NCBI GenBank assembly: GCA_905178155.1
Contig: CAJINV010000003.1
Span: 10,611,890-10,675,889 of the forward strand
DNA length: 64,000 nt
Source of the DNA: Amoebophrya sp. A120
Lineage: Eukaryota > Protista > Dinoflagellata
Direction of reading: 5' to 3'
Part shown: piece after piece, positions 3,916 to 61,095 of the stretch
Layout of the letters: the number at the start of each line of letters is the position of its first letter
Numbering within the stretch: the stretch's first letter is position 1
Notes under the pieces: model-generated
What the model was told of the DNA's origin: nothing
Seen by the model: the letters and a program-made list of their open reading frames with translations, nothing else
Databases searched by the model: none
Made by a program: the position numbers and the translations under genes

Positions 3916-5253
3916 ATGATGCTGATGCCTGGTGAGCAGCAGCGCGGAGTGCTGCCGCAAGGACGCTTCCAAAGCCCAAGTGCCGTTTCAAGTAACAAGC
4001 TATCTGCGGTTGGTTCGGCCGTGATGGCCGAGGTCAAGATGGCACAGATGCAATTTCAGAAGGTATTCGGAGGAAGAACGACCTAGTACCCACCCCGACC
4101 CCATATTTCTTGTTGCGTAAAAATTTGTCCTCTGTCCAGATAAACTACAATGCAGTGGATCTAAAAATGCCTGCACATACACACGCGACCAGCTAATCAT
4201 TGCAACCATGATGCTGACCCGAAGAAACTTGTACAATATCACGCACAGCTGCAGCTCCCAGAGCTCCTGGTAGACGATTTGTGTAATTTTTGTACGCAGG
4301 AGATTTTCGTTTCCACCTGCATCTTGGCTTATACCTGCGGAAGGGTTCCTGGTCGTGGAGGCGGGCGTGGTTTTCCTTTTCTCTGGGATAGAATGTCCAA
4401 GATCTCTGCTGGGAACGCTGCATGTCGAGCTCAGTATCTTCACACGATTGTAGCGCTCCGTCGACTCCAGAAGCAGAAACACGAGGGACATCGCTGCTTC
4501 TTGGCGGGTATGGAGCAGGATTGCAAAACGTATTATCGCACTGGCTTGGATGGGATATTTGTCTTTTTCGTGATGATGACCAGCCGAAAAATATATAAAA
4601 TAATTAGATGTCCTGTGAAACAAGAACAAGAAGTATACCGCGCAACACAAAAGCACTTCAATTGTACGACGATGCAGAAGTGCGCCGAGTCAAGTGCGAT
4701 GCCATTTTTGCACAGGATATTACGCTCAGTATGGCGGAGACGAGCTGCGTGAATAACTGCGTGTCCAAATTTTACCAAGTTGCACATGCAATCGCTTACG
4801 AGTCCGCCGAACAGGCCAAGAAACTGAACGAGTGGGGTCCTTTAGCCAGGTGGACGCTGACGTTGCTCACTATTCCATGACAACTAACCATTCCCATCCA
4901 ATTTGTCATACAAAACATGGAGCTGGCGAGGGGTCGCGTCGCGTCGCGTCGGCTTTTCGTTTTGGCTTGCAGAAAGTGAATGGGTGTGGGGTGGGATGGT
5001 TAATTTTCAGAGAATGCTATCCGTCGGTGGCTGTGCAGGGTTAGCCTACTACTTGTTTATCGTACCTGAAGACGATGCTTCAGTGGAAGCAGCGAACCCG
5101 CAAGGAGCCCGTGCATTTGCAGCGGGCGGGCGGACCAATCTTCTCGGAGGGGGTGCGTCCCAGTCCCTTACCGGCCGTTATGGGTGGAGGAGTGGAGCGG
5201 GTACGGGCACAACAGCAGCCGGCGGATGGAAGTCGCAATTCAATAATTTGTGA
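3916..5253 (+). CDS. Mitochondrial small Tim chaperone (Tim8/9/10/13 family, twin CX3C) with C-terminal hydrophobic segment; exons ~3916-4062, 4392-4433, 4716-4870, 5022-5253
   Basis: Manual splicing yields AEVKMAQMQFQK-NVQDLCWERC-MSSSDITLSMAETS-CVNNCVSKFYQVAH, i.e. CX3C-X14-CX3C. Introns 4063-4391 and 4434-4715 are GT-AG and in frame. The third intron is a TIR element whose removal gives RWTLTLL(T/S)VGGCAGLAYYLFIV. Confidence 0.75.
4064..4390. mobile_element. TA-ended introner (intron 1 of small Tim gene)
   Basis: Starts TATTCGGAGGAAG, ends CTCTGGGATA (degenerate TIR). Flanks GAAGG/GAATG (4/5 TSD). G|TA..TA|G creates GT-AG intron 4063-4391. Confidence 0.55.
4522..4712. mobile_element. TG...CA TIR element with 6-bp TSD (CAGGAT) inserted at a 3' splice site
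   Basis: Left TGCAAAACGTATTATCGCACTGGCTTGG vs reverse complement of right end TGCAAAAATGGCATCGCACTTGACTCGG; CAGGAT at 4516-4521 and 4713-4718. Confidence 0.65.
4871..5016. mobile_element. Introner family A copy 1
   Basis: TIRs TATTCCATGACAACTAACCAT and ATGGTTAATTTTCAGAGAATG match the TIRs at 15182/15373 at 18/21 and 19/21; shared internal CCAATTTGTCA. Flanks CTCAC/CTATC. Removing 151 nt restores the frame. Confidence 0.8.
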
Positions 5254-5748
5254 CAAGCTAATGTCAATCTCCCTACTCATGTTTCATCTTAAAAGCGTAA
5301 GGTAAAGCTGCTAGGATTATGCTCTACCTAAAGGGGTTGGTAGTACTATTGGTTGCGTAAAGATGCACCGTGTGCGTAATCATCATAGTTTTGTCTTCCT
5401 CGTTTTGCGCGCGACACGATGATCAGCCTCAGATATCATAATCCACGTCTACCGACACCCACTCCCACGCGGTCGTGGCCTATATACGACAAACGACAGT
5501 CGATCTTTCAGTTCTTTTGTCTGTGCAACCTCATCTTCATCATCGAGAACAAACCATGACGTCAATGATCCCTGCATGCCGGCATTGGGATGAGGTGTGA
5601 GGCAAGCATACCGCGGTGTTTTTGATGTTGTATGCTGAGCGTCGCTCCTCCTTTGAGAGCTCTTCTTCGATTCTTCGTCGACAGAGGATATGCAGAAAAG
5701 CTGCAATGTTTTTTTTTATATTTGCATTTATATAACTATATACATCTT

Positions 5749-7098: not shown

Positions 7099-9212
7099 AT
7101 GGTGGACTATTCCAAGTGGAGCCGAATGGAGATCTCCGACTCCGAATCGGAACACGACGATAGCGACTGTGATTTTGACCCACAAGACGAGCATCAGACC
7201 TCCATGCTTCATCAGTTGCAAAACGAGCACGCGAGGACAAACAAACGCTCCGGCGAGGATTCTGCACTTCGGCCCAAGGTGACTCGATTCGATGCAGAAC
7301 AACGAGTGACATTCGGTGAGGGCCAACCAGTTCGGGTCGAGCCGGGAGGTAGGTACGTGCCTCCTGCTGATTTTTCTACTTCTTCGCCTTCGTCTGGCGC
7401 AAAAATGCCTCACCGCACCACTACCGCGTGCAGGACGAACAGCACAGAGGCTAGCGCAGCTACAGCGTTATCTTGTGGAACAACATCAACATCGGACAAG
7501 TATGAGGCACGCAGTAACGTTGTGAGCGACGAGCAGAAGGCAGTTCTGGCCCTGGCTTCTTCTGGCAGCGGAGCAGCTGCCACGTCGACGGCGCAGCACC
7601 CCGCACGAACCGCGTACGATTGGAATCAGGCACTTGCATCTGACTGGACGCGGAACGGGGGCTACTGTGCGGACTCGAATCCTCCGTATTACTGGAGTCA
7701 AAACCAGCGGGAGGTGTTTATGACTTTCTCAAACGTTGTGGCATGGACATCCCTTAAATGGTTTGCGGCTGATTTTTTGTTCTTGCATTCTTGAGCGGGT
7801 CCTCTTCGAAACAAGCCTGATATCGCAAACAAGCATGACCATCATTATCATGTCGATCTCGATGTTGAACCCATGGATTCTTGTGTGTGGCAAATCAACG
7901 AAATCAAGAAAAATCCATGCAGGGGGTGTCAATGGAACCACGTTTGGAAATGCTATACCGTTTGTCCGGTTCCAATGTAGTTCCAGTTGTGTTGTACACG
8001 AAAAGTTGCGTCCGCAGTTTGAGAAATTTGGGCCGCGACAGGTGCAGATACGGCCGCTAATGCTCGAGCCCTTCCAATGGACGTACGAAGTTGACGCCGC
8101 GGCGACCACGGAAGAAGAAGACATAGACTGGGAGTTCGAAAACGGCACTGGAAGACCGAATCAAGGAATGCTCAATGTCCGTTACTTGAAACTGACGGTA
8201 GTATTTTTGTTTGTTTCTCCGTGTTTTTCAAGAGGATGTAGTTTACATTATTTTTTCATCGAGCAGTCGTATCGCTGCAGTGCATAGGATGGTGACGCAC
8301 CATCATCCCCGACGGCTAATTTGTGTGTGACACGCCTTCGTCTGCACCAGTTGTCGGAGCACTGGCGACACGATGATGATGAAGGTGTGTTGTCTGTACC
8401 AGCATGGAAAAATTTACTTGAGAGAGGTGCTATATGGTCTATATTGATTCTTCGAATCGCGGCGGGGCGAGGTTGTATCTCTGGCTCTGAAGAGAAGGTC
8501 GCTGAATCTCAAGCGAGCCGTCGCGTCAAATGAGTCCATTATTGGTTTGCTACCGGGTGACGGCTCGGGTCTCTGTCTCCGAATACTTATCCACAGCACA
8601 TCATCAAAAGATGCTACACAACACCTCCTAGTAGTTGCTACTAGCGTTGTAAGCACCACAATAAAAGAAGACGATGAGAGTGACGTGGAGGTGCAGAAGT
8701 AGTGGGGCAGTACTTACCCTTACCGAGCTGCGTGGTCATGATCTACGCGGCAAGGTGTTCAGAATTTGATCTAGAAGTAAATCAAGATAACAGAGCTACG
8801 TGATAAATAGGTAGCAGCGTACTTATAGTGAGCTGCTGTCACATGAAGGACAAGGTGGTGGATGTGCAACTCTCACTCAATATTCTGGACTACACAGGTT
8901 GTGAAAAAGTCGATGATTACGGGAACCGTCCTCTGGTGGCGCGCGGCCTTTAAAGGACACCCGGAGATGCAGCCAGAGCAGATTCAGGATAGGTCAAAAA
9001 GAAACATCGAACGACAGAAGGAGTTTTACAACCGGATGCTGGAAGCGACCGAGCTTTTCAAGCAGAAAGTTCGCAAAGACAATGGCGCCGCGATACTGCC
9101 CGTGGAAGAAAAGGGGCTGCTAGGGGTTGCACAGCAGTCGGTTGATGGCGAAGCCGTGATGTGCCCACCCGCGACTGTCTCCGCACCGACCGAGGGCGCA
9201 GGACCGCACTAG
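7099..9212 (+). CDS. CS (p23/NudC-like) domain co-chaperone; exons ~7099-7713, 8042-8197, 8898-9212
   Basis: N-terminal MVDYSKW motif; CS-domain signatures YYWSQNQREV, DIDWEFE, YLKLT-VVKK...LWWRAAFKGHPE. In-frame GT-AG introns 7714-8041 and 8198-8897. Confidence 0.8.
7717..8039. mobile_element. Introner-like element with 5-bp TSD AGGTG
   Basis: AGGTG at 7712-7716 and 8040-8044; subterminal 10-bp IR TTTCTCAAAC (7725) / GTTTGAGAAA (8017). The TSD itself supplies AG|GT, so excision is precise. Confidence 0.55.
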
Positions 9213-10455: not shown

Positions 10456-13400
10456 ATGGCGCACGTGGAGTATCTACCTGCCGGTCGGACGACTGAGTTC
10501 CTGCCCGATCATCTAGTGCATACCATCGGACGATGGAGGCACAGCAACCACCAAAAAGTGCTTGCTTTGTTGAAGAATGGTCCCTGCTCCGCCGAGGAGA
10601 TGGCCTATGGTAAAAGTAGAAGAAAAGTAGTCGTGAGAGTAAGAAACTTCGGATTCGGCGAACACGTGCAGCATATTTTCTAAGGCCCTGCCGACTCATC
10701 AACATATTTAGCCTGCCTGCTTTTTGTTCCTAAACCTAAACCTCACGCACGCCCTCTCAGTGCAGGATAGATGATGACGATGACGATTAGCCTACTTGTT
10801 TTTTAATTTATTGTCATGATGTTGATCAAAAAACACACAAGAACATTTATCTCCAGCCCTGCGTCTAACCGGTTCGTTGGGCGAACAGCCGGAGTGTGAG
10901 GATAGCGGCACAGTGGGCATTGCGGGGTTGCTCGAACTGTGCGAGGCCTTCTGGATCCAGGTGAATGAGCATCTTGAGACTTACCCGATAAATGTGCAGA
11001 GCAAAATCCTTGACTCCGTTGCTATCCTGACGAAGCTGCTGCTGGATCCGAAGTGTTGCGGAGACGAGCTGCGCGCCGAAGAGAGCCTGCCGGCGCGGAC
11101 AAAGGCCACACTCGAACAGTTTCGCAGTGAAGTAGAGAACTGGTGGCCAAGCTTGCGACCAGCGCATCTTCCCCCGAACCAGGATGAGGGAGCAACCGAA
11201 GAGGATATTAGCGGCTTCGCTACTCCCGGGGAGGGTGTCGTGGTGCACAACAATGTTGTGGGGGCTACAACGAGTGGCGGCCGCTCATCCGTCGCGAGTT
11301 TTCACACGGCAATGTCGACACCGCCGGCGAGTTCGTCCAGCGCGGTGGCTGCGGGGCCGCTGGAGGTAGTGGGTGGGTCGTCGTCTTCCTCGGCGCCACC
11401 ACGACGCTTGTGCCTGATCACGCCCACAAAGTTTCACGCCGCCCAGGTCAAAGACCCGGGCCAGCGCGACGCGGAGCGCGAAGTCGAGTCGCGCTTTGCG
11501 CAGAGTTGGGCGCGGCACGACATCACCGCCCTTCTCACGGAAGAGGGCATGCGGGCGGACATGGAGGAGCGAGCGAAGCTCAAAGCCAGACTGATCAAGG
11601 ACCTCATCCTGCCTAATTGGAAAAAGCCCGTCGAGCTGTTGTTCGCGCAGCTCCGGCGGGCAGCCAGGCTGGACAATGGCGCCGGCAACGGCGAACACGA
11701 CAACCTGGCCGGTGCCTGTGGACACCTGGTTGGCGTCATCGCGCTCGCAACAAAGCACTGCGAGGACCCCAGGATCGCCACCGAGCTAGTGAGCTTTCTT
11801 GCGACGGGTATTGATCCGTTGCAGAAGATCGGAGTGCTGCAGTGCCGGTTACTGGTGTTGCTACTGCCTAATTGCGTCCTGCAGGAAACCATCGTTGACG
11901 GGCGGCTGTGGAGGTGGTGGGGGATTCTCGAGGAAGGAAAACTTGCGAAGTTTGACATGATGTGGTTTAAGGTGCTAGCCAGGTTCGCCAAAAACAGGTG
12001 GCGCGGCGGCCTTGCTTGTTGTGACGAGGAGGTGCAAGAGAAAGCGGCAACGGTGCTGGCGCGCAAGAGCACCTGGCTCTTCAATAAGGTGCTGCGCCGC
12101 ATGTGTCTACCGCTGTTCTCGCCGGTGGCCAGCACGCTCGACGCTGCCACGGCCCAGGCGAAGCTGGATACGTCCCGCTATGGCGAGACCTACAAGCTCC
12201 CGAACTCTTTGGAGCAATTGATGGGCCCGGTATCAACCTGGAAATTCGTCACCAAGTTTCTGGTCTACTCCTTGGAATCCGACCCTGGACTCGGAGTTGT
12301 TGCCGAGGACCCGAAAGGCTCTACTACTGCAAGGTCTTCTGACAAGCTTGCAGGTAGTGCAGCAGCTTCGCCCAGCACTACAACCTCGTCCTCAGCCAAC
12401 ATGTTGTATTGGCAAACCTTGGAGCTATTGCTTCGCCGCATTTTCCCCTACATTCAGGGAGACCGAGGCGAATGGTCCTGGCACGTGATGACTTTCATCT
12501 ACCTCCTCACCAATGCCTACGCTATGCGGGCGTCTCGCGAGCGCACCCGCGCGCGCGGCGCCGGTCGCCTGCTCCGAGCCCCATCAAAATCCAGGGAGCT
12601 GCCTTTCCTGTCTAAGGATGCAGACACGTACTTTTGCTTTCTCGTGGTTCCATTGTTGAAAAAGACCATGGTGCAGCGCGACGCGTACGCACAGCACGCG
12701 TCGCTGGACTCGCTGGCCCGGCTAGCACGGCTCACGAACGACGACACGTTGAAAGTTTCGCAAGTGTCCACAGAACTAGAGATCTCCATGGGCAGCGCGA
12801 CCGTAGATGAGGTTTTCAAGAAGTACAGTTCCAGTTTCTCGCTTTTCCACCAGTGGGACGTGGAGAATTCGCTCCACAGCCTCTTCTGCTCCGGTTTGGA
12901 GGTTTTGAACGACCCCAGTCAGGCGACGCGGATCAACGGCATCTTCCGGCTCTTCGCCAGGCTGATGCCTTCCGTGCTGCGGTTCTTCCCTTCCTTTGTG
13001 CCACAAATTCTGGACCTTATTCTAGTGGGTATCGACCCTACGGACTCCGCCAAGACGCTGGCGGTCGCCGCACTGATTGTAAACCTGTTCAGCTCCGTGC
13101 CCTGTCTGGACATCGGCGACCTCCCAAGCGAGCAGAAGTCCGACGCGACCGCCAGGGCACCGGCGCCGCTCACCTGCCGGGATGAGGCATATCCTGGCGA
13201 GATGGTGCTGCGAGTTGGCAGTTCTGTTAGTTCATCGTCTTCAGGAAGAAGTGGTGCTTCTGCAGATGTTGATCGCGCCTTTTGGGAGAAGTGGGAGGAG
13301 GAGCGCAAGTCCGGTGCTGTCATGGCATCCAGTGCCATGCCTGGGTTTGCACTGGACCTGTTCGACCGCAGTCTGCAGTACATTCTGGACACCTCGCTGG

Positions 13401-16400
13401 ATGGGGGCAAGAAGGGGCAAGCTTTGAACACCGGGCAGGCGCTCGACAAGGTAAACGGCAACCTGCTCTTTATCTGCAACTTTTTGGTGCTCTCCCAAAC
13501 GTCCACAAGCATCCAGAATCAGGTGCTCGAGCGGATGAAGGAGTTTGTGCAGGGAGAGATCCACAAGGACAAAATTAAGACGGTGAAGGGTCTGCTGCAG
13601 GCGATCGCGCGCGCCATGCCGGAAGCCGCACTCCGGGAGCTGTTGCCGCTGCTGGTGAAACGCATTGAGTCCGGGCGCAGCGGGCACGTAGAGGTGTTTT
13701 ACTGCATGAGTCTGCTGCAAGGTCTGGTGCGTTTAGTGGGAGGCACGGCCCTGCTGCCTTACCGCCAGGAGCTGGAGCGCGTCCTCAGCTTCGGTTTGAA
13801 CTACTGCAAGCAGTCCACCAGCGAAAAGGCCGCAGCAGTGAGTGGCGGCACAGACAACAGCAAGGAGAACCGCGCGGTTCACAAGGCTACCGCAAAGTTA
13901 TTTCGACGTCTCTTGGCCGCGCTCGGGAGCAGCTACATCGTGAACGACTTCCGCGTGGTCAGCGAAAAGGATTGGAGGAATGGGCTGACGCAGCAGCAGG
14001 TCCAGAACCTGTGGGCGCAAGTGCCGTGGTGGCGTTGCTTTCCGCTGCGCAAGCCGGTTTGGTACGTCCCAGGCGTGGAGGAGCTCGCGTGGGCTACGGA
14101 ACTCGGCAGCACAGTCGCCAGCAATATTCTTCATCTGGTGTGCGCCGCCTACGTCGGCGGGAGTGTTGCCGTCTCAGGTGGAACTACGACCAGCAATGCA
14201 AGAACAACGAAAGACGCTGCAGATGCTCCTCCCCCATCCGCTGATGCGATGGATGTGGACACGCCAACGCCCGGAGCGCAGGGAGGTGGTTTTTTCAAAA
14301 GATGCAAAACTGCCGCTGCCTGGATCGAGGAGCTGCTCGAAACGCCAGACACGCCATGCGATGCTGCAAAATCGAAGGACACTGGGGACTGGGAAGCGCT
14401 GAAGGACGACGCATCATCCATAACATTCGAATCACACACAGAAACACGCACCGAATTCCGTCGGGCGTTTAAAGTCATTCACCAACTTGCCGAATCCAGT
14501 GGCGCCCCGGGTTTGCGGCTGGTTGGTGGGTGCAAGGAGGACTTCGACTTGCTGGAGAGTGAGCAAAGCCAAGTTGCTACGGCGGGAGCTGGTGGAAAGA
14601 GGAACGCAAGTCGGGTTCAACTGCTGCGCAACTTTTCTCGGCAACCCTTTCTCCTCGCGGACCGGGTGCTCAGCCTTTTCAAGGCCTTGCTGCGAGGGGG
14701 ACACGCACTCTGGGCTGACGAGCTGACCGACTACAAAATCTGGACGGCGCCGCAGTCGTTTCCACACTTCTTCGAGCCACTCGCGATTGCCATGCGCCTC
14801 ATGCTTGAAAAGGGCCTGATGGGAAGTAATGCGGAGACGGTCGCGGTCTCCGAAGAGCTCGATGCTGCACTTCTTCACGCGGGGGACCCGCCAGCGGGGC
14901 AAAGCAAGTTGGCAACGACATCCGCAGCATCGTCCTCGTCGGCCGCTGCTGCCACTACATCCACAGCAGCTTCGCTAATGCCGCTCCCCTCTGCCGTGGC
15001 GGGTACGGGGCTCACGTCTCCCCAGGTGACGAAAAAGTACTTGCGCTGCGTTGCGGAGCTGTGGATGAACCAGATCCCCTGCAACTCAGGGTCGCTGTTC
15101 CGCACGAAGCGACCAGCGGGCAGCCAGCGCGGCGACCCGTTCTTGACTTGGTACATGAATCTGTTCGGCGAGTCAGTGATCTATTCCCTGAAAATTAACC
15201 ATCCCCGCCCAATTTGTCAGGCGAAATATGTACGGAAATTCTTTGCTTTTCATGCGGTTGAAGGTCGCCGAAAATGCTTCCTCGCCCACCCTCCGGGGAG
15301 GGGATCCTTGGCCTGTGGAGCTGGCTGCGGGTGTCCACTACATGATGACGATGATTCAAAAAATGGATGGTAATGGTTAATTTTCAGGGAATATGATCTC
15401 GCAGATGGCGCAGACACACTATCTGGCGAAGCACCGCGACGTCCCAAGGCTGTGGTGGACGCAGAAACTCTGCGTCACCGTGGACAGCCACTCCGCCGAT
15501 CGGGTGATGGCGGGCTACACCTATCAGGGGCAGCGGCGGCATCTGTGCGAGCTGTTACTGGAAATCTCACTCGGGTCGCCGGACGCGCAGATCCGGCAAC
15601 GGGCCCAGGGTCTGCTCAGTCGCGGGGCGCGAAAGCACATCGGTGCCAAAGGCTCCCTGGCGCAGAACTTTGCGGTGCGGCTGCGCGGAGTCAAATACCA
15701 GATGCAGGGGCTTCTGCGGCAAATCGACTTCTCCGAAGAGCAGAAGAAGGCATTTGCAAACCAGCTCAACGGGATCTCATTCACGGTTGGTGGAACCATG
15801 CGAAGCATGCTGATCACCCTGTGGCGCGGAAGAGGCCGCGCGTCCGCAGCATTTTGCTACAAGCTGATGGACCTCCTGTATCATCTCTCGATTTCGCACC
15901 AGTCGAGCAAAGAGGTCGTGAAGACCACTGTTATGGGATTGTATTCAGTTTTGAAATCGACAAAGTTGGAAGATTCTGCAAAAATGCACAAAATCAAATT
16001 CAAAATCGACACCAGTTTATTTGTTGTTGTGGCCCTACAATTTCTGTTTCTAGTAAGCGCATGACATTAGATTTCGTCGCACCTTGTTCATACAATTTGT
16101 CAGGCTGAGGCTGTTTCATTGGGCGGCAATTAGAAAATGAAAACCTGTTTCCGTGGTCAACAAACATGCAACTCCCGTACAGCTGTAAGTATCTGTGTCT
16201 CTGACGCATGTCCCTAAACAGGCTCACAAGCAGCCTTATAAAATAAATTCATGGCACTTGGCATTTCATGCGTTGCAAATCAGTTCTTCATCGGCTTTGT
16301 CAATTTCGAGCCTGGCGCCTCCACAAGTGTGCTACAGCGAGTATTTTGCTGTGTCGACGCGTGGATTGTATGAAGGAAAAGCACTAGTGATCATCTTCCG

Positions 16401-20843: not shown

Positions 20844-21003
20844 GAGGACTATGTAGCACTGCTTCTAGCGAAGAGCTCACTGAGTAATTGCATAAAACGA
20901 AAAATTTAGGCTAATATAATTCTTCTGACGTCTACTTGTACTTCAGATGACCTGCGAAATCACAATCAAAGGCAGGAATCTCTTATAGGAAGTTCGACCG
21001 GAT

Positions 21004-41800: not shown

Positions 41801-42095
41801 AGGAGGGCCGCCACCGGGACCCCTGTTTGGTGTGAACTTTCAAGTCGAGCGCGCTCGACACATGATTGCGACGGACGAGGTGGCCCCACGACAAGTGCCC
41901 ACGCACCAGCTGCTGAACAAGCAGGCCAGCGGTCGGTCTGCCGGCGGACGCCGCGCCGCCGACAACCTGAACTACGGACGTAGGTTGCCGCCCGCACCAT
42001 TGGGGAAAATCGGATACGTCCGAACAGACGTGGCGGCCATATGGCCTCGACATCAAATGTTACCTGAACACCGGTTGCATGATCTCCTGGTTTAA
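29868..42095 (+). CDS. Very large multi-exon coiled-coil protein with a low-complexity C-terminal half (unknown function; could be more than one gene; 5' start unresolved)
   Basis: In-frame junctions traced: 30571-31046, 31268-31644, 32920-33082, ~33131-33434, 33829-34112, ~34182-34461, 35131-35573, 35983-36365, 37026-37385, ~38569-38974, ~40924-41259. Heptad-rich exons (LAELQRLLEEAQEALAAE, ELEAARKELERINRELEE). Some internal junctions are not resolved. Confidence 0.6.
30572..31045. mobile_element. TA-ended introner, TSD GACCG
   Basis: GACCG at 30567-30571 and 31046-31050; element begins and ends with TA; degenerate subterminal IRs (GTACCCAC/GTGGGTAC). GT-AG intron 30571-31046 in frame. Confidence 0.65.
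34182..34456. mobile_element. TIR introner with non-canonical boundaries
   Basis: Left TGTGAGAGTGGACAATCTCCCCTTCCTTTGAAA vs reverse complement of right end TATAAGAGTGCGCAATGCAATTCCCCTCTCCCTGAAA; flanks AAAGA/AAAAA. Removing 280 nt gives DVSVLVKPSQKIVFKDTDTNEEF. Confidence 0.7.
37027..37384. mobile_element. TA-ended foldback-like introner with central palindrome
   Basis: Subterminal IR GCAAATATGTC(...)TGGAGAAGTGC / GCACCTCTCCAGACATATTTGC; GT-AG intron 37026-37385 in frame; 42-bp-period duplication at 37049/37091. Confidence 0.6.
37161..37213. repeat. 53-bp near-perfect palindrome (26-bp arms, 1-nt spacer)
   Basis: AGTTTTGCGAGAGCGAGAACTTTCTT-C-AAGAAAGTTCTCGCTCTCGCAAAACT. Confidence 0.95.
37472..37728. 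repeat. Degenerate minisatellite, ~73-bp unit x ~3.5, probably intronic
   Basis: Units start at 37472, 37546, 37619 and 37692 (GCACTACAAGCAG..CAGCACATGCTGGACACCTG..GGGCTTCCAAC.GTGCTAC). The period is not a multiple of 3. Confidence 0.9.
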
Positions 42096-48500: not shown

Positions 48501-51500
48501 GCACCTTCAACGAGGCCGAGCTGGCATTGCTAGCCAATGCGGGCAGCAACTTGGGAATCACAGGGCCGCTGCTGGTACGGGCTGTCGCGGAGGGGGTAAG
48601 GAACAGAGCAATCATTAAAAACCTCCGGCACGCCGCATTGCTTGCAAAGGCATTCGGACGAGGCGCGTGGCAGCGCGTCGCAGAATTGGAAGACGTCTTT
48701 GGATCGACGATGGAAGTGCTTGCGAAGTCTATTCTTGCGATTGATCGAAACACAAACGGGAGGAGCCTCTCTGCGCACGGCTCTTGCAGAAAAAGCGCAC
48801 ACTGCTCTCCCGACTCCGACAGCTTTAGGGCAATAAATACAACAGGGACAAGGACGGGGAGCTCGTCTGATCATTCCGCAACTACGACGGAGCCGGGTGC
48901 GGGTGGGCGTCAGACCGGGTCAAACATAACCTTGACGGATTTCGCCGATCTCAGTCTGATCCTGCTTTGCCCGGTTCCTTCCGGAACTAGCGAGGATTTC
49001 TGTGCGTGGTTCAAGTGCGAACTTAGTCGCAAACTGACGGATGACTCGCGCGCCGCGTCTGGTATTCCCGGAGAGAGTCATAGCGATAGCGCGCCGGCGA
49101 GGAGTTGCGGGAATGCGTCCAGTACGTACGCAGAAAAGATCGACCTGAACGTCATTGGAGACTGCCTAGCGGCTTGCGGAGCTGGCACCCCACGCCTTTG
49201 GAAGAGCTTAGTTGATCGTCATTCTAGTACAGTGTTGGCCGCCGATATTTTATCCGAGAAGACGACTGCCTCTGCCACGCGAAACTGCGAAATAAGTCAC
49301 GCGCTGCAGCAAGCTTTGTCGATTAACGCTTCCTGGACAAGAACTTTGATGCGCGTCGCTGGTCGCGGCGAGCCTTTTCAGACTTTTGCAGAGGACGCAG
49401 CACTGCAGTGCTGCCTAGTTGATGTAGCCCGCATGGTAGGAGTCCCGGAAGCAATAGAAGCGTCTGTCGTTACAGGAGATGAAGAGGGCTTCTACGTCAG
49501 AGACGACGCCGAGAAATGCGTCCCGTGCGCCGGAACAACAACAAGCAGACCGCAGGCTGGGGTCAAAGTCATATCAGTACAACCAGTCAGGAACTCGGAC
49601 TCCGCCTCACCTCCATCCTCGACGGCCGACGACTGCAATACGACGTCGCAGCGAGCATCACATTCTGCTCAGCTCCTGCCGGACTCGGCGGCTGAAGTCC
49701 GCGACATTGCCTCTCTCTTGCACAGCACTGGAGCTCTCCTAGCGCGGCAGTTGCGGAGGCCGAGCACGGCCGCATTTTCGCGCTGCGAGTTGGCGCGGCA
49801 AGGACAATACGCTCAGCTCTTTCAGCGGGTCGGTGTACCGACGTATATTCATCCCCTGTTGGCAAACCTCTCTGCTGCATGCCCTGCTGATTTCTGTCTT
49901 GCGTGGGCTGCTTTTCGCGGTCTGTTCGATCACGCCCACAATGCATTACAACGCGCGAGGACGGCCCGCAGCTGCCACAACGGGGAAGATGGTCTGCTTC
50001 GAGCAGGAACAACAGGACGGGAGGCTCCTTCAACATATAATACCTATCAGACAATAGATCGTCCGACCCTCATCTCTGGTGGAAGAGGAAGCTGCACTGG
50101 CACGACCACGGCAGGAAATTATACTTCTTCGGACGAGGATAAGCATGGCGTTGCTAGTGCACAAGCGCAATTTGGTCGCTATTTGGACAAACTGCGGCTG
50201 GAGTTCCGCGCCTTTCTGGTACGGGCCCGTGAAGAGGACAAGTTTTCGCCATCATTTTGGCGTGACGCGAAGCCATCGAATGTGGTGCAACTCGTGCGCG
50301 ATTTTCCAGCCGATGGGGGTGTACTGCCCCGCGGATCGACAATCAGGTCTGACTTGGAAGATCAAATCGCGGCGCTTGCGGACCAAGTTATGAGACTGCA
50401 CAGTGTCGTCGTCGATCCTCTCATGATAATGAAGAAACAAGTATGGTCAACATGTTGTGATGTTTTTCATGGCTCTGACCCGCCAAGAACGTGATGTCCT
50501 TGCGGCGATGGCGTCAAAGGATTGCGCTTGAGGCACAGTCGGGTCCGTTTGCGCAACAAAAAAGAGGGGGGGGGGCGATGTGTGCAACGTGATACAATTC
50601 GAGCTCGACACAGACATTGCCCTTGGGTTGTTGGATGCTTTGACTGCATCGTCGACGTTGCCGTCCACAGCAGAGTGGTACGTAGATGCGCAGCTGGTGG
50701 TAGATCCTCGTTTGCTGGTTAGAGAACATGGTGGCGAAACTGCAGGACAAATGTCGAATGCCAATCCCTTCACGAGAAGTAGAAGCTCGTTTGCGAAAAA
50801 ACTCGAGGCGCTGCAACGAAAGGCGCTCGATTATTTGGGGCGCAACTTCTTTGAGAAAGCACCAGCCTGCGGGGGCGATGAGCAAGATACTAACACTAAG
50901 GCCTCTCTTTTTTCTTATGAATTCAGAAATTGCGGCGCTGGTCCTGGTGCTAAGAGCACGGCTGTGGCAAACAACAACAAAAACCGAAAACCGATAGGCA
51001 GGAGCTGCGAGCAGTCTCGGACCTGCGTTGCCATCGTGAATTCGCTGACCCGCCTCGCTGTCAGGGATGCCATCATAGAGGGAAAGGCTCTGCGCTACTT
51101 TTGGCGACCTACGCAAGAGGTCATCGAATACTTGCGAAGCACGACTGATGATGAGTCAGAATTGCAGGTCGTGGAGACGAGGAAAAAACAGTGGCGAGAT
51201 CATCATCTCCATGTGCACGGGGCGGAGGCTCCGTCTTTCAGTCGTGCTCTAAACGAATGTGACTCGTCACGGCCGCTCTCTATTCTGAGTAAAAGCGTCC
51301 CCACACCAGAGTCAGGCTGCTCTTTGCTACACAAACCAAAGACCTTTGTGTGTTGCGCATGACAGATTTGGCGTCCTCCTAGTGGGTTCGTCGTGTTTCT
51401 GTTTCGTAAGAGTAAGTGCAGCCGGATTACAAATTGATCACTTTCGCTTTGTACTCTTGGTGCTAGCGTGAGGACAAAGTCGAAACAAGCACAAGCACAG

Positions 51501-52671
51501 CTTAGAAAATGCTTCTCATGTTGGGGCTTTGCATGAGAACCCTTTTAGGCTTGCAGATCTGCGTGACAAGCATGGGCAGTTGGGGACGGTTTTACACAGG
51601 ATACTCCCCGCCCTTGCGGTGTTCTCTTCGTCGCGGTCCGTGTGTTCTCCCCATCGACGAACGAGGACTACGACGTGGCCGATTTCCGACACCAGTCTTG
51701 ACCTCTTGGAACTCAGAGCGCACTTTGGGATGCTTGGACTTTTTGCAGATTCCTCTCCTGCGTCGTCCGCTTCTTGCAGCAAAAAAGGCCATGTCCGTTC
51801 ACCTAGTTCTCATCAGGAGGCTATGCGAGGAGCGGGTGGCAGTTGCGGCTCTGCTGATCTTCATGAAGTGGGAGATACTGGACCTTGCCCTTTTGGCACG
51901 CCGTCGACGGCAAACCCAAAGGCCTCCGCGGATACTGTCGCAGGAGATGAAGAAGAGACCACGACTCCAAGACAGTCACAGCCGCGACAAGAACCATTTG
52001 AACTGGAGCTGTCTACCTGCGAAGGAGCGCGCACTTTTGTCGCTGCATTTGCGAGGCGGTATCGGACACCGCGTCAACTGAGTTTGCAGCTGACCGGTCT
52101 TTGCCTCTTCGTCGACGCAACTGGCCAGGAATGGCTGCACCGTGAGCGTAAGGGGTCCCTGTTGGCGTCTTATTTGCGCCACTTTTTCGATCCTGCGGCG
52201 GTTTCCGACTTTGAGCATCGCCAGCTGTACCTGATGGTGGTGGATTTTTTCCAGCAATCTCTTGCTGCTGCCGCGGAGAAGGAGACGAGTGGAGCACCAC
52301 CTGACCCACCTCTACCCACTACATTTGCTCAATCATTTTCTCTTGTCGCTATTGAGCGACTTCTTGAAGCCGCTGCTACAGCAGTGTCACTTGAGCAATG
52401 CAGCCAGAACACACTTCAAGTTCAATTTCCTGGTTCCAGCGTTGCATGCGGAAGGGGCCGCGCCTCGACTTCAACGGAGACTACCAGCATATCACCGACA
52501 GTCTGGTGGAACAAGCGCCCAACCACGCCGCTGCAACGAGATATCCGAGAGGTCGCCATGGCGGCGGTGGCGAACCCTAATTCGGTGCGGATTAGCTTCA
52601 ACGCGCCCGCGCCGCCCTATTCTGTTCATTTACTTTTGACATTCCTCAGCGAGCACATTGCATCGGAGTGA
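45551..52671 (+). CDS. Large HPR/OPR-like helical-repeat (RAP/FASTK-like) RNA-binding protein; exons ~45551-50440, ~50598-51349, ~51501-52671
   Basis: Repeats FDEKPLANIANAIAKA, FGNQAIVTLFNACSRLDVRHPPLLTAL, FNEAELALLANAGSNLG resemble alveolate HPR/OPR repeats; C-terminal PPYSVHLLL resembles the start of a RAP domain. Introns ~50441-50597/50603 and ~51350-51500 restore the frame. Confidence 0.6.
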
Positions 52672-52683
52672 GACCCTGGGTAA

Positions 52684-55289: not shown

Positions 55290-58200
55290 ATGCCGGGCTC
55301 GTGTCGAGCAAAATGTTTGAGTTTTAACAACTTTGAGACAGTCTACAACATGTTATTTGCAAGAAGCTGCGTTCCGGTTTTGTTCTTCTCCAAGGAGAGG
55401 CGATATTTCTTCCTGATGGAAGATTCTCGTTGCCGGGTTCTTCCCTCGCCTGTGGTATTCTTGTGGTGCTTGGCACTGTGTATTGCGTCGTGCGCCAGTG
55501 AAGTAATTGCAATTGCAGCTGCTCCTCCTGCCAGCACGTCGACGACCCCGCTGCAGCGAAGCGAGATCTTGAGCCAAAGTGATCTGCACCGCAACGACGA
55601 GCAGGAGCCATCAGCTATTCGTGAGTATGAATTTGATTACGACGACATCCTTCGCCTTTTGGCAATAGAAAAGTTCCGCACGACCGAATCTTTTCGGTAT
55701 GCCCTGGCGAGTGGGGACGCAAGCGTTCGCTTTCGTGCGGAGTCGATCCCGATGGTGACTGGGTCGCAGCGGGCTTACATCTTGAAGCAGTTCAGAAAGA
55801 AGTTTTCTGCTTTGTCCGGCGACAGGGTTTTACCTTCCGAACAAGCAGAGATAGACCTGCAGGATGTAATAGCCCTAGAGAACGCCGGACGTGAAAATGC
55901 GACGGGAGTAGAAGTTTTGACTGCGCCTTGTCTTCGACGCCGGGACCAACCTCCTCAAGACTTGCTCGGCTCGTTGCGATATTACGCTTTGCTGTAATAC
56001 AATGCAACCCGATTATTATGTCGCCATGCTTGACTTTCCGCTGTCGACCGAGTGTCGGAATGGTACGAGCAAAGAAATAAAGTTGCAGGTACGGCTGCCG
56101 CAAACTAGAAATACTAGATGTAGATACGTAGTATGGGAGCGTCAGGATCGAAATCGACAAAATCGTAAAAAAATTATGGCAGTCCTTGGCGGGGGCCTTC
56201 AGGGCGCCCCCTCCGGGACCCCTTTCGATTCTGACACACTCAAGCATACCGTCGCGACTAGCTCAAAAAGGTCCGAGTGTGTCAGAATCGAAATGCGAAA
56301 TCCCGGCACCCCTCCAGGGAGCCCCTGGATTTTTTTTCGATTTTGCGAATTTCGATCCTGACGCGTCCATACGTAGACAAATTGAGTTACACTCAAAGTC
56401 AGAGTAAAACTAAAATCGCGATCCGTGCTTTTGCTTTTACTTCACGCACTGGCCGCGACGTTCTGTCGCTGGCCTTGCGCGGAATTTCGATTTAGCACCC
56501 ACAAGCACGTCCACGCGTCGTGGGGGTGTTTCTCGTCCAACATGCAGCGCTCCTTCACATAACCATAAGTGAGAGTTTGCGGATAGTACCTGAAACGAGG
56601 CAGAATTCTGTGCGTGCTAAGGTGTGTGTGCTTCACCTCTTTGCGTTTGCCTCACGCAAGGGGAGAGCATGTGTTGCGCCAAAACTAGCACCAACAGGAG
56701 CGCGTGCACGTGCTCAAAGACAATGAATGCATTATATTAAAAGTGTCCTCAGCGGCAACGGCATGACGGAAAAGTCCAGTCCTTCCTGATATTCTGTCGC
56801 GTTCGCGGAGCGATTCATAGCCGGATTTCCTTCGCGGGGAAACCAGAGGCGAGGAGAAAAAACGGATTCCATCACATGCACGATTGACTTCCTAAGGAGG
56901 GGTTTGTTTCCTGGCGTGAAGTTTCTCCGCCGTGTTGTTTCCAGCTTCAGGTATGAGAAGGACCCCAACGCACGGAAAAACCTATTTGCTGGTGCCAAAC
57001 AGCTTGTTGCGGTATGGAAGGCGTGTTTGGCGCTGGAAGCGGCGGTCGGGAAGGGGAATGAAAGAACAGATAGTGGTTGTGAAAGTTCCCTATCTACAAC
57101 TCCGACGAAAAGAAGTAGTCCGCTCCCGGTTGATGTTGAGGTCTCTACCGCTCATGGTGACCCGGTTGTTGAGGAGCAAACGTATCAAAGTCTGGAGGAG
57201 GCTCAGAGCGAGATTGCCGCGGTGCAGGAGCAAATTGAAGAACAAGAGGCTGATGAAACAAGAAATGGCCAGCACGGAGCGGCGAAGCGTGTGCCTTTTC
57301 ATCTTGGAGATGAAACAGAGGATGCAGCGATGGATGATCCGGAGCATTCGATCAAGATTTTGGCCACCAGTCTGGTGGACTACGAATGGCTACACGGTCT
57401 GCATGCAGCTGCACTCCCGTCCGTGAGGCATGAGCAGAGCGGCGCGCCGTCAACAGCGACCACCAGCAACAAATATTACGCTGACGAGGAGCAGCACTCA
57501 TCTTCATTCTCGTCGTCGTCGTGGGCACATGATTTACAAAAGTCCTGCAAGCGAAAGGTTCAAGTCGTGCCTTTTTTGATTGACATCGCCGCCGTTCAGA
57601 TCGAAACTGTTGCCGCTGCGGTAGAGCGAAGCGCGGCGGATCTGGTGCTCTTTCTGAGTCCATTCCTTTCCGAAGCACCGCCAGCTGGAGTGGCTTGCAG
57701 TTTGATCGACGATTACTTGGATGAATTTCAGTCGCGCCAAATAAATGAACATAGAGCTCGTGGACATGATCTACAAGTAGAGCCGGATATTATTGTCCTC
57801 TAAAAAAGTACTTTTGACTATCGTGATCGTACTTCCATTGCTACAGAGAGGACGCATCGCTACCTTTTTACGACCTGGACAAGCAGGAGCTTTGACCAGA
57901 GCCATTCGCTCTTTCTGAAAAAATGTCATGCCATCTGTTTTCTTGTTCTTCCGATATTCTGAGAGCGACGCTTTTAAGTACTTTTGCGAGGCATAAAGAA
58001 GACACTGGAGCAGGAGGAGGTCGCGCGCGGCGACTCGATCGACGTCGACCCGTCTGGCAGCGAGAAGACGAAGCAGGCAGGAGACGAAGCTCCACCTGTT
58101 CGGACGAAGTTGAGAAGTGACAAAAATGTTCCTGCAGTGGTGGCGGGCCTCTGCCGCATGCAAACTCGTCGCAGCACGGCTTCCGGTCGTCCCGGTGTTA

Positions 58201-61095
58201 CGGGCATGGAGTGGCCTACCCGGGAGGTGACATGGCAAGACTGGCGTCTCGAGTTTGGTCCCTCGGGAAGCCATTTCCCACCGAAGAAATTGATCCTGTC
58301 GCACCAGTGGCTGGAAAGCTCTACTACCAGCGCTACACGACTGATGCCAGCAGAACTGTTTCAGCAGTTTTTGCAAGACGCGTTTGCTGGAGCTGGCGCT
58401 GGACAGCATGCTCCTCGTGGAGACACAAATAAAAGCGAGAATGTCTCCGCACCCGAGAGGGAAAAAGTGCCGGGCTCGCCGGATCGTGAACGTGGCCAAT
58501 CCGAAAAAACAGAAGATGAGCAGAGCAAGATGATTCGAAGGGTTTGCGAGGAGACCTTTGAGATATCCCCATAGAAGCGTCAGCGTATTATCCATTCTAC
58601 ATTAAGATTAACATTCAAGATGAAGATGGTACTTCTACTAACGGAGCTGCTGGCGCTGCGCATTCGAGATGCCATTCAAAGAAGAGTTGTAAATCCGAAT
58701 GGCGCTGGGAGCGGGTGTCCACTAAATGATGATGATGATGATGATTCTCATGGGTAGATATTAGAAGAGCATACTGGAGCTGCCGTGTCATGAATTCCAG
58801 ACTTCTCCTGATTAGAGCCGAATGAAAATTCTCGCAATCACAAACAAGAACAGCGCCGTATCTTCTGCTTCAGACTTGTACATTAACATTTCTATATGCA
58901 TTTGCAGATCATCATCATCGTAAGTACAAGATATGCTCCCTGAAAGCTAGGCTGTGGGTGATACTGACGCTTTTGTAGAGAATATCAGAACAGTCTCCCC
59001 TTTGATGATGTCCGTGGAAAATACCCGAACGTATCCAGGAAAAAACATGCATCCCACCAGTTTTTGCATGGCAAGGGCAACCACTGGAAATTATGCACGT
59101 TTTGCACGACAGTGACGAACTGGATGGAAATGGGTGTTTTTTCCTGGATAGAACGGGATCTACTTCGGAAGTCCTGGGATGATCCAGAAAATCTGTGCTG
59201 GAGCTCCGCAGTATTTTCATCTTGCGAGGAAACAGCTGAAAAAGAACGATGAAGGATTCTTTTCCTCCCTTGGTGAGGAGCTCCCGTGGCGGGGGCATCC
59301 CAAAAGCAGCACGACCATTACTTCTTCTAGTACCGCAAAAAAAGATGATCGCGCGTTGGTGCTCGCGGAGTTCATTTTGGAGATGGATCTCTTTTTCTTG
59401 GGTATCAAAGGCCTGGACTTGCAGTTTGTATCAGCGATGAGCCTCCACGTCCGGCCGGGTCCAAGTTCTCCCAACGCTGGCGCTCGGTCACCGAGGAGAA
59501 GTTTTGTTGAAGACGTCGATTTATTGAGGTACGGGGACGATGCCAATCATAACACGTCGGCGGGGGCCGCATCTTTGTTAGCATCGGCGTCCTCTTCGTC
59601 CGACTCCGTTGTTCTCTACACTTACTACAACGCATGGCCGCCGACTCGCGCGTTGGGGTTACTTGAGCAGCAGGATAGAGTTCTGCCGTTTCTGGAGAAC
59701 CGTATGTCATTTCAACCAGACTTTCGGGCGTCCGGCATATGCCTGCGAGAGACCGAAAGTTACCTGGGACTGCTGGCGCACCGGGGCGTAAGTGCCCGCT
59801 TTGCTGTCAAGTACGGCGTCGATAACTTCAGCGTAGACCACGACGGGGCCGCCGCCGCTGGTCACCAACACCAGAGTGCTGGTGCGGCTTCGGTATTCTT
59901 TAGCAGGACAAGTGGTCAATCGAAAACACATCACTCCTCGCGCTACCAGGGACCTCGACCTCTTTCTCATCGGCTTGCCAAGCAGGAGGAGCAAGCATCT
60001 CCTTCACCCGCCCAACAAGAAGTTGATACTGTCGCGGAGAGCAGAGCCACACGCTCGTCGGGCATCGTGCTCGGACGCTTTGCGCGCGGAATGGGGCGGT
60101 GTCTAATGTTGTTCTACCGCAGGAGAAGTAGGCAGCATCGATCAAGAATTACAACAAGCGCGGCCAGCGGGAAGTTAAACATGGAGCATGGGCAACACAT
60201 CCAGGAAGAGGAACAATCTATCCTGGGTCTTCTCGTTGCCTTCTTCGAATGCCTTGCATACGAACACACGGTTCGCATACCGCCCTTTGAATTTGATGCG
60301 ACCGGGCAACAGCTACTGGATCCCGACGCGACGGCGCAGCTCCTGTCTTGCGAAAACAGGCCGGTAGCCAGTGAAACGCTCAGCGAGATAGCAGGACCCT
60401 CGGCGTCAAAGCCAAAAGGAAGTGGAGTAGTTGACTCTGAGCTTATTATGCTGAATCCGCTCTGCTATCTTACGGTGCCAGACACTCGCGCGGGAGGGGG
60501 TGCTGAGTACCACCAGGCGCAGGTCGATTCTTTTCGGCAAGTCATGGAGAAGTTGGTGCTTCCAAAGCCAAGCGGCGTGACGCGGCACCCCGATGCCCCG
60601 GATGAGGTAATATGGTGGCACCCAAAGGCCTTTCACGCACGCAGACTGGCTCGGATGAATAATGAAACGGAAAGAAGCGCTCCTTATCATTTTACTCGCT
60701 TCGGTTCAGCATCCGTTTCGTATTCTTCCGCGGCCGATGAAGCTGCAGCTTCGTGGGAGGACGGTTTGGCGATGCCCGTGCCACCCAGTGTATTCGTTGT
60801 CGGGCCCCAATTGCTGACTGGCTCATCGGAACCATTGGTAGACTTACGGCTGGAACGCAAAAGCCAGAGACAAATAAAACTCCAGGTCCAAGAAGAACAA
60901 GCAGCCCAAGAACGTCGAGGCAAGACCAACGACGAGCCCTTGTTCGAGGAAACGCCACGGCGTGGCAAGCTCGAGTTGCTCGAAGCAGCCGAGGAACTAG
61001 TGTGGTACGATGGACAGACGCACATGAATGCCCATGCTTACGTGCAGTTTTCCCTGCAGTTGTACGCACGGTTTTTCTATCCAGTGCAAAGTTAG
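55290..61095 (+). CDS. Secreted/membrane protein with a very divergent PLOD-like (GT-A) glycosyltransferase signature; exons ~55290/55416-55993, 56951-~57794, ~57978-58561, ~58979-59030, 59152-61095
   Basis: Signal-peptide-like VVFLWCLALCIASCASE; ordered motifs IKILATS, ADLVLFLSPF, KKLILSHQW, KYPN(N)GIYFG, NDEGFF recall PLOD GT-domain motifs (LLVxTVAT, DxVxFTD, LLFSAE, YLNSGxxxG, DDQxFF). The domain call is tentative. Confidence 0.5.
56132..56371. mobile_element. TA-ended MITE with ~45-bp TIR, internal 19-bp IR and TSD CGTAG
   Basis: TATGGGAGCGTCAGGATCGAAATCGACAAAATCG vs reverse complement TATGGACGCGTCAGGATCGAAATTCGCAAAATCG; TTTCGATTCTGACACACTC (56223) / GAGTGTGTCAGAATCGAAA (56275); CGTAG at 56127-56131 and 56372-56376. 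Confidence 0.88.
59032..59150. mobile_element. TA-ended introner, perfect 16-bp TIR, TSD GAACG
   Basis: TATCCAGGAAAAAACA / TGTTTTTTCCTGGATA; GAACG at 59027-59031 and 59151-59155; GT-AG intron 59031-59151 in frame. Confidence 0.9.

What the first reader, a model, noticed from the sequence alone, without database searches (positions are those of the whole stretch)
4063..59155. Window-wide intron-making system: TA...TA TIR elements with 5-bp TSDs that build their own splice sites
Seen: at least 10 elements share TA (or once-mutated TG) termini, TIRs and an exact or near-exact 5-bp duplication: 4064, 4871, 15182, 16369, 18658, 30572, 34182, 37027, 56132, 59032. Nine fall exactly where a gene's frame breaks. 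When the left flank ends in G and the right begins with G (GAACG, GACCG, GATTG/GACTG, GAAGG/GAATG, GCTTG/GGCTG, GCACG/GCGCA), G+TA gives GT and TA+G gives AG. The resulting canonical intron removes the element plus 2 nt and leaves 3 nt of the TSD, so the frame is kept whatever the element length. With other TSDs (TGATC, CTCAC, AAAGA) the frame is restored by removing the element plus one TSD at non-GT-AG boundaries. Known: introners derived from DNA transposons, and IR/DR-bounded non-canonical introns in Amoebophrya. Inference: the specific 'TA end + 5-bp TSD = +1 codon' rule, shared across unrelated internal sequences, points to one transposase superfamily and may be undescribed. It would also add single residues to proteins.
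Basis: partly seen in the sequence, partly recalled or inferred. Interest (0 to 1): 0.88.

Follow-up and report, generated by a model that had tools for sequence, protein, structure and literature searches.

The report
Transposon introns cut by fixed ruler
These are the already described transposon-derived introns of the marine parasite Amoebophrya A120; RNA data show each one leaving together with exactly five extra bases, so no amino acid is added, and the cuts likely sit at a fixed distance from the transposon's ends instead of at the usual GT-AG signals.

Summary
The elements are real: TAT...ATA inverted-repeat elements with a 5-bp duplication. The window is Amoebrya-type DNA of Amoebophrya sp. 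A120, whose introners are published, TAT ends and 5-bp repeats included. Removing element+2 or element+5 gives the same frame, so only RNA can decide. In RNA contigs all 21 element junctions seen lose element+5 nt, including 4 of 4 sites where GT-AG/+2 was on offer. What the data add is one rule: a cut 1 nt before TAT and 4 nt after ATA fits 21 of 21 junctions, whatever the end dinucleotides and in either element orientation. The papers I could read call these borders variable or unknown. If the rule holds genome-wide, the variety of A120's non-canonical splice sites is just the variety of target sites, and any insertion is removed without a scar. No transposase was found; which machine cuts is inferred.

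The parts
1106..1393 (+). TAT...ATA element, flanks ATCAA/ACCAA; intron 1105-1397 under the -1/+4 rule (AT..CA)
   Evidence: RNA skip of 293 = 288+5 in X1, X4
4064..4390 (+). Element, flanks GAAGG/GAATG; GT-AG/+2 available but not used; intron 4063-4394 (GT..AT)
   Evidence: skip 332 = 327+5 in X1, X4
4509..4719 (+).
   Evidence: skip 216 = 211+5 in X4 only
4871..5016 (+). Element (right end ATG), same TIR family as 15182; intron CT..AT
   Evidence: skip 151 = 146+5; blastn to 15182
7719..7957 (+). Element, flanks GTGTT/CCGTT; intron TT..GT
   Evidence: skip 244 = 239+5
15182..15393 (+). Young element, 16/16 TIR, perfect TGATC duplication; intron CT..AT; in the PSME4 gene
   Evidence: skip 217 = 212+5; same TIR in metagenome loci
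15932..16325 (+). Element (right end ACA); intron TT..TG
   Evidence: skip 399 = 394+5
16369..16625 (+). Element, flanks GATTG/GACTG; GT-AG/+2 available but not used; intron GT..CT
   Evidence: skip 262 = 257+5
17921..18277 (+). Element whose -1/+4 intron happens to be GT..AG; excludes the 0/+5 register
   Evidence: skip 362 = 357+5
18658..19106 (+). Element, flanks GCTTG/GGCTG; GT-AG/+2 available but not used; intron GT..CT
   Evidence: skip 454 = 449+5
30572..31045 (+). Element, perfect GACCG duplication; GT-AG/+2 available but not used
   Evidence: contigs of X1 and X4 join 30566 to 31046, 479 = 474+5 (table 8)
31795..32023 (+). Element, multi-copy right end; intron CT..GC
   Evidence: skip 234 = 229+5; 23 X6 contigs run off at 32023
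34182..34456 (+). Element (left end TGT), flanks AAAGA/AAAAA; junction not read directly
   Evidence: lies inside the span of X4 record 9, joint row not shown; length arithmetic not decisive
34510..34683 (+). Element, flanks CAGCA/GAGCA; intron AT..GC
   Evidence: skip 179 = 174+5
34732..35050 (+). Element (right end ATC, placed by hand from the A-run offset and a 4/5 flank match); intron CT..AG
   Evidence: skip 324; the automatic pick gave +8, the hand placement +5
35114..35360 (+). Element; excludes the 0/+5 register; intron CT..AA
   Evidence: skip 252 = 247+5
37036..37384 (+).
   Evidence: skip 354 = 349+5
37433..38693 (+). Longest element (1261 bp), perfect GCCTC duplication, internal tandem repeats, no transposase seen; TIR family of 31795/35114 in the opposite orientation
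   Evidence: skip 1266 = 1261+5; ORFs; orientation
38761..38989 (+). Element, flanks TCGGA/CCGGA; intron AT..GG
   Evidence: skip 234 = 229+5; relative in L001
40924..41254 (+). Element (right end ACA); excludes the 0/+5 register; intron CT..CC
   Evidence: skip 336 = 331+5
42040..42367 (+). Element, flanks GGCCA/GGTTA; intron AT..TT
   Evidence: skip 333 = 328+5
42493..43471 (+). Degenerate element (ends TAA / ATG), 979 bp; intron AT..CA
   Evidence: skip 984 = 979+5
51281..51603 (+). Element, flanks CTCTC/CTCCC; not covered by RNA
56132..56371 (+). Element, perfect CGTAG duplication, in non-coding sequence (stops in all three frames on both sides); not covered by RNA
59032..59150 (+). Young element, 16/16 TIR, perfect GAACG duplication; untested G...G site, predicted intron 59031-59154 (GT..AC)
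   Evidence: no RNA laid
10456..20843 (+). Host gene, proteasome activator PSME4-like, 2510 aa, with five element introns and four ordinary GT-AG introns
   Evidence: Pfam; model with +5 removal is identical to the A120 protein P0001; keeping any one element truncates it

Best explanation
These are non-coding TAT...ATA DNA-transposon derivatives (introners) of Amoebophrya sp. A120 that duplicate 5 bp on insertion and leave the RNA as element plus 5 nt, likely cut 1 nt before the TAT and 4 nt after the ATA by a spliceosome that would read the element's ends instead of GT and AG. Shown: the 5-bp duplication, the +5 removal at all 21 junctions read, its independence of the end dinucleotides and of element orientation, and its use where GT-AG/+2 was available. 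Inferred: that one fixed register (-1/+4) applies to all; it is the only one that fits 21 of 21. Under it the mRNA keeps bases 1-4 of the left copy and base 5 of the right copy, which rebuilds the original target with no residue gained. Also inferred (about 60%): the cutter is the resident spliceosome, reading N-UAU as a relaxed donor (ordinary introns here all begin GUA) and setting the 3' cut by distance from the right end, whose A at -7 is invariant and could be the branch point. Mobilisation is presumably by an integrase-like DDE transposase encoded elsewhere (not found).
For: 29 RNA junctions read, 20 not GT-AG. Exact TAT and ATA lie at a total offset of 5 nt in 15 of these 20 and in 0 of 20 at each of 17 other offsets. 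The register -1/+4 fits 21 of 21 elements, 0/+5 fits 18, -2/+3 fits 15; three junctions exclude 0/+5 and six exclude -2/+3; the chance of this fit if the cut fell evenly over the six scarless registers is 4e-6, or 2e-5 without the two weakest ends. First intron base: C7 A6 G6 T2; last two bases: 12 different dinucleotides, AG in 2. Positions +2 T and +3 A are invariant (21 of 21), as is A at -7; the 8 ordinary introns all start GTA and end CAG. One TIR family is spliced in both orientations. Run X6, which covers introns evenly and so looks like DNA, has one contig across 28900-37580 and no joint at these sites. Empty sites in homologous metagenome loci L002/L004 hold one copy of the 5-mer at 4 of 5 polymorphic insertions. 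Published counts fit: the nine commonest A120 non-canonical pairs all start NT (Table S4 of PMC7789003), and 892 of 1322 family-1 introns start NT (Dataset S2 of PMC12130899).
Against: n is 21 elements in about 40 kb, from assembled contigs of at most two samples of one study; contigs drop rare isoforms, so a minor +2 form is not excluded. The raw-read RNA runs X9 and X10 laid 0 reads. One search hid 33 joint rows. Two element ends are weak (34732 placed by hand, 42493 degenerate), and element ends were sought near the junctions, which partly builds in the motif counts. With one mismatch allowed, offset 3 also scores 13 of 20 (offset 5: 19). A third of family-1 introns in Dataset S2 are not annotated as NT. 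Family 65 there has GG/CC ends and 8-9 bp duplications, so not every A120 introner is of this type. One polymorphic site (L002 4469-4722) differs by 3 nt from its empty counterpart and is uninformative. The left end at 34182 is TGT, so +3 A may not be required. No lariat, branch point or splicing factor was observed; U1 snRNA was reported undetected in A120.
Confidence: 0.8

Rival explanations
1. One reading: at G-N3-G targets the element builds GT and AG, element+2 nt is removed and one codon is added.
For: GT and AG do exist at those positions and the frame stays open. Introners that add residues are known in other species (PMC9860276 passages).
Against: 4 of 4 covered G...G sites lose element+5. 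The +2 model of PSME4 has 2512 aa and differs from the annotated 2510-aa protein; the +5 model is identical to it (whether the annotation rests on the same RNA is unknown, so this is not counted as independent). No clear G-N3-G excess.
Confidence: 0.03
2. Same +5, -1/+4 removal, but done by a separate non-spliceosomal nuclease and ligase guided by the TIR hairpin or by a protein bound to the ends, as suggested for euglenid nonconventional introns.
For: No dinucleotide constraint at either end; works in both orientations; overrides adjacent GT-AG; U1 reported missing. The terminal TAT:ATA pairs are predicted with probability above 0.75 in 9 of 21 elements.
Against: Those pairs have probability 0.1 or less in 10 of 21 elements that are still cut in register, so a stem is not needed in the model's terms. 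The 5' end shares +2 T and +3 A with ordinary introns. The left TA never varies while its pairing partners vary in 5 of 42 positions (Fisher p=0.055: weak).
Confidence: 0.3
3. The cut position slides among the scarless registers from one intron to another, as the 'variable' borders in the original description suggest; -1/+4 is only the commonest.
For: Many single junctions are ambiguous because of the repeat. Published annotation lists many different 5' dinucleotides and assigns different mechanisms to different families.
Against: No junction among 21 excludes -1/+4, while every other register is excluded by at least three; 4e-6 under an even spread.
Confidence: 0.12
4. The junctions are reverse-transcriptase template-switch artefacts across hairpins with short direct repeats.
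For: Inverted repeats with flanking direct repeats and non-canonical ends are the recalled signature of this artefact (from memory, no call).
Against: Junctions persist where only 1 nt of repeat is shared (4509, 4871, 42040, 42493) and where no terminal stem is predicted; keeping any of the five elements truncates PSME4; the skipped form is the one found in the long contigs of all RNA runs that covered the sites.
Confidence: 0.03

Closest known systems
Amoebophrya A120 introner elements / non-canonical introns (Farhat et al. 2021, PMC7789003)
   Same: Same organism label. IRs start TAT, then seven variable bases, then a run of A; 3-5 nt direct repeats at the borders; about 65% non-canonical introns (here 20 of 29); no transposase inside.
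   Different: The paper calls splice positions relative to the hairpin variable and the border unknown and gives repeats of 3-5 nt. Here the repeat is 5 bp throughout and one register fits every junction. Its figures were not visible to me.
A120 introner families in Gozashti et al. 2025 (PMC12130899, Dataset S2)
   Same: TIR DNA introners; family 38 is noted as '5-bp TSD, TA/TA Termini'; 'co-opt both' splice sites is the most frequent call in the rows read.
   Different: Automated TSD lengths run from 2 to 6 (one 11, many blank) and four different mechanisms are assigned across the 56 of 58 rows read; no single rule is stated.
TSD/TIR introners of Micromonas, Aureococcus, Symbiodinium, Polarella (PMC9860276, PMC11282704, bioRxiv 10.1101/2020.10.14.339549)
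   Same: Non-autonomous DNA transposons whose duplication supplies one or both splice sites, mostly without changing mRNA length; Polarella class 12 has a 5-nt TSD.
   Different: Those need G[T/C/A] and AG, so only some targets give introns. Here neither end dinucleotide is constrained and an available GT-AG is ignored.
IS3EU/GingerRoot and Ginger2/TDD DNA transposons (PMC10045372, PMC2836005)
   Same: IS3EU/GingerRoot have TA..TA termini (occasionally TG..CA); Ginger2/TDD make 4-5 bp duplications.
   Different: IS3EU/GingerRoot usually make 6 bp, here 5 (6-nt identity 0.22); Ginger2 ends are TGT, here TAT. No transposase to place on a tree.
Euglenid nonconventional introns and Fritillaria non-canonical introns (review PMC11282704)
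   Same: MITE-like introns with TIRs, TSD-like repeats and non-GT-AG ends.
   Different: Those keep preferred junction motifs (pyrimidine|purine; AG-AC/AG-AT) per the review; here the end bases are free.

Membership tests
Amoebophrya A120 introner elements | Host is Amoebophrya sp. A120 | tested here: met
   Window exon is 100% identical to a protein named for A120; full model identical
Amoebophrya A120 introner elements | IR begins TAT, seven variable nt, then a run of A | tested here: met
   Position counts over 21 elements, both ends against section 11 of PMC7789003
Amoebophrya A120 introner elements | Short direct repeat overlapping the exon-intron borders | tested here: met
   5-nt flank identity 0.70 against about 0.2 for other lengths
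Amoebophrya A120 introner elements | Removed from RNA at mostly non-GT-AG ends | tested here: met
   20 of 21 element junctions are non-canonical
Amoebophrya A120 introner elements | Repeated in the genome | tested here: met
MITE-like non-autonomous TIR DNA transposon | Constant-length TSD with a single copy at the empty site | tested here: met
   4 of 5 polymorphic sites in L002/L004; 25 elements picked by TIR alone: 5-nt identity 0.79, 13 perfect
MITE-like non-autonomous TIR DNA transposon | A cognate autonomous element with a transposase | tested here: inconclusive
   No transposase family among 115 ORFs scanned from the window and loci; whole genome not held
IS3EU/GingerRoot | TA..TA termini | tested here: met
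IS3EU/GingerRoot | 6-bp TSD (usual) | tested here: not met
   6-nt identity 0.22 and 0.27
IS3EU/GingerRoot | Transposase of that clade | not testable with these tools
   no transposase in hand
Ginger1/Ginger2 | TGT termini | tested here: not met
   TAT at 36 of 42 ends of the 21 RNA-defined elements, TGT at 2
Canonical U2 (GT-AG) introner that adds a codon | Splicing at the GT and AG made by flank G plus TA end | tested here: not met
   4 of 4 such sites spliced elsewhere
Spliceosomal intron | Lariat with branch-point A; needs U2/U6 | not testable with these tools
   only sequence hints: +2 T, +3 A, invariant A at -7

The most novel reading that the evidence does not exclude
A120 has a second splice code with no dinucleotide rule: the machinery measures from the transposon's own ends, cutting 1 nt before UAU and 4 nt after AUA, even when a GT-AG is 3 nt away. 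The tens of thousands of 'variable' non-canonical splice sites would then be one intron class, N-UAU...AUA-NNNN, whose apparent diversity is only target-site sequence, and a TAT-ended transposon could land anywhere in a gene, in either orientation, and be removed without a scar. The invariant A at -7 would be the branch point of a U1-less spliceosome.
Probability: 0.5. Interest if true: 0.72.

Novelty: already known. Interest (0 to 1): 0.45.

Why it matters
How Amoebophrya removes tens of thousands of introns with no consensus ends and no detected U1 snRNA is an open question in the papers read. A fixed register turns it into three direct tests: recount all junctions against -1/+4, map branch points to the -7 A, and look for the factor that binds TAT-N7-AAA ends. 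It would also explain why these elements could spread through exons so freely, and it would fix gene models, whose borders slide within the repeat.

Tried and rejected
No whole genome is held, so no genome-wide scan or copy count. Deducing the 34182 junction from contig length gave 74 possible exon sets under both models: dropped. The ortholog test for one-residue indels failed because the only other hit, P0002, aligns to residues 1-1070 and the first element lies at residue 1493. Frame tests on L002 cannot separate +2 from +5 (520 against 516 aa), which shows why frame is no evidence. Pfam scans found no transposase (50 and 65 ORFs, the latter chosen from and beside a list of 156). An early impression that base 5 of the duplication is specially conserved did not hold up: 18 of 21 against 11-15 of 21 at bases 1-4. 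The candidate at 24737 was not pursued (left end TAG, no RNA, inside a duplicated stretch). L003 is an AT-rich hit without a partner TIR and was treated as chance; L008 is the same locus as L002 and was not counted twice; the TIR-only picker also finds 3 pairs in L003, so it has false positives. DNA-level excision was considered and rejected for sample X6 (no joints at these sites), within the limit that contigs drop rare forms. Two look-ups of earlier scan findings returned nothing. Huff 2016 and the journal version of Roy 2023 are not held.

Full report
Observation. A scan for TA-ended inverted repeats found 4 pairs with at least 13 of 16 identity and a perfect 5-nt flank repeat, against none in 20 local shuffles. 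The tenth (37027) is off by 9 nt: the element is 37036-37384 with a perfect GCGCA repeat. The window has at least 25 such elements.

Organism. One exon of the large PSME4-like gene (Pfam) matched a 2510-aa protein named for Amoebophrya sp. A120 at 100%. All genes modelled lie on the + strand.

RNA test. Element+2 and element+5 differ by 3 nt, so frame cannot choose between them (shown on L002: 520 against 516 aa). I laid public runs on 1000-20900 and 28900-48800. Two raw-read RNA runs laid nothing. Contigs of X1, X2 and X4, listed as RNA by guess, skip ordinary GT-AG introns and so are spliced transcripts; they come from at most two samples of one study. I read 29 junctions: 15, 13 in the table (33 rows were hidden) and one from that call's contig pieces. 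Twenty are not GT-AG in any shift. Exact TAT and ATA lie at a total offset of 5 in 15 of the 20, and in none at any of 17 other offsets; with one mismatch, 19 of 20 at offset 5 and at most 13 elsewhere. One GT-AG intron (17921) is also an element at offset 5. The remaining 8 are ordinary introns, all GTA...CAG. All four covered sites where the flank Gs create GT and AG (4064, 16369, 18658, 30572) lose element+5. The PSME4 model with +5 removal is identical to the annotated protein; the +2 model is two residues longer and is not (not counted as independent of the RNA). Keeping any one of its five elements truncates the protein.

Register. Decay of the repeat removes the usual ambiguity. A cut 1 nt before TAT and 4 nt after ATA fits 21 of 21; 0/+5 is excluded by 17921, 35114 and 40924; -2/+3 by six others; an even spread over the six scarless registers gives this fit with probability 4e-6, or 2e-5 without 34732 (end placed by hand; the automatic pick gave +8) and 42493 (degenerate). 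Under this register the first base is C7 A6 G6 T2 and the last two bases take 12 values. Fixed positions are +2 T, +3 A and the A at -7 (21 of 21 each). One TIR family sits 5' in 37433 and 3' in 31795 and 35114, and all are cut alike. The terminal three pairs are predicted to form in 9 of 21 elements, partly in 2 and not in 10, so end-to-end pairing does not look required.

Transposon origin. Flank identity peaks at 5 nt (0.70 against 0.19-0.26). Run X6, whose even cover of introns marks it as DNA-like, has no joints at these sites, has tens of contigs running off into other flanks at element ends, and shows summed depth up to 1609 against about 44. A 21-nt TIR pattern found 9 metagenome loci; 7 carry the partner TIR with a 4-5 of 5 repeat, one a weaker one, one none. 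In 7 loci, 25 elements picked by TIR alone give 0.79 identity at 5 nt, 13 perfect, and none of the 19 good repeats is G...G or C...C. L002 and L004 are homologous and differ at five TAT/TAC...ATA insertions; at four the empty site holds one copy of the 5-mer, the fifth is diverged by 3 nt. No transposase was found in 115 ORFs.

Mechanism. Shown: insertion with a 5-bp duplication; removal of element+5 from RNA. Inferred: one register, which keeps four bases of the left copy and the last base of the right copy and so rebuilds the target. Inferred more weakly: the spliceosome does the cutting, taking N-UAU as a relaxed donor and measuring the 3' cut from the right end, with the -7 A as a candidate branch point. 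A separate hairpin- or protein-guided nuclease is the main rival; sliding registers and template switching fit worse.

Literature. PMC7789003 (abstract, sections 10, 11, 12, 16, passages, supplement legends and rows of Tables S4 and S7) describes A120 introners with TAT-N7-AAA ends and 3-5 nt direct repeats, shows a 5-bp example, finds no U1, and calls the borders variable or unknown; its nine commonest A120 non-canonical pairs all start NT. PMC12130899 (passages, SI legends, 56 of 58 A120 rows of Dataset S2) notes '5-bp TSD, TA/TA Termini' for family 38, finds integrase-like homology there, and assigns mixed TSD lengths and mechanisms; family 1 has 892 of 1322 NT starts. PMC9860276, PMC11282704 and bioRxiv 10.1101/2020.10.14.339549 (passages) cover TSD-based introners elsewhere, including ones that add residues. 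PMC10045372 and PMC2836005 (passages) give TA..TA with 6 bp for IS3EU/GingerRoot and TGT ends for Ginger. PMC11453091, PMC12005148 and PMC13326754 (passages) and PMC12166617 (no hits for my terms) add no rule. Six full-text searches showed no paper stating a fixed register; figures, subscription papers, Huff 2016 and the journal version of Roy 2023 were not seen.

Verdict. The fixed -1/+4, dinucleotide-free register is well supported in this window, appears unstated in what I could read, and makes the open question of how these introns are spliced directly testable. Interest 0.45; 0.72 if the rule holds genome-wide and is new (probability about 0.5).

Noticed in passing
window 28332-28791: Near-perfect palindrome, 225-nt arms 88% complementary with a 10-nt loop; its ends are not TAT...ATA; probably another mobile element.
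   Followed up: no
window 21004-22214 and 23992-25086: About 1.1 kb of non-coding sequence is duplicated at about 80% identity on either side of a sialyltransferase-family (GT29) gene at 22307-23938.
   Followed up: partly
window 3916-5253: Small gene with three element introns; the spliced product has two CX3C motifs, recalled as typical of small Tim proteins (label from memory).
   Followed up: partly
window 32023 and 37432-37433 (run X6): 15 DNA-like contigs carry a right TIR end followed by a left TIR end of the same family, with unknown letters between: possibly closely spaced or tandem insertions elsewhere in the genome.
   Followed up: no
window 38245-38283 (run X6): Many contigs fold back here with short differing spacers (table 5c), suggesting a small palindromic repeat family nested in the 1261-bp element.
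   Followed up: no
window 37157-37217 and 56223-56293: Short internal hairpins nested inside elements 37036 and 56132.
   Followed up: no
L001-L009 (eight loci of one metagenome assembly): An unnamed, probably related organism carries the same TIR families densely and with fresher duplications than the window; homologous loci L002 and L004 differ by five insertions, so the elements were recently active.
   Followed up: partly
L004 82-867: A 786-nt insertion absent from L002, inside an element, with a longer flanking repeat than 5 nt: a different kind of mobile element.
   Followed up: no
window 45551-50494: 1647-codon uninterrupted ORF with no Pfam match and almost no RNA contig cover in its first 3 kb in X1, X2, X4.
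   Followed up: no
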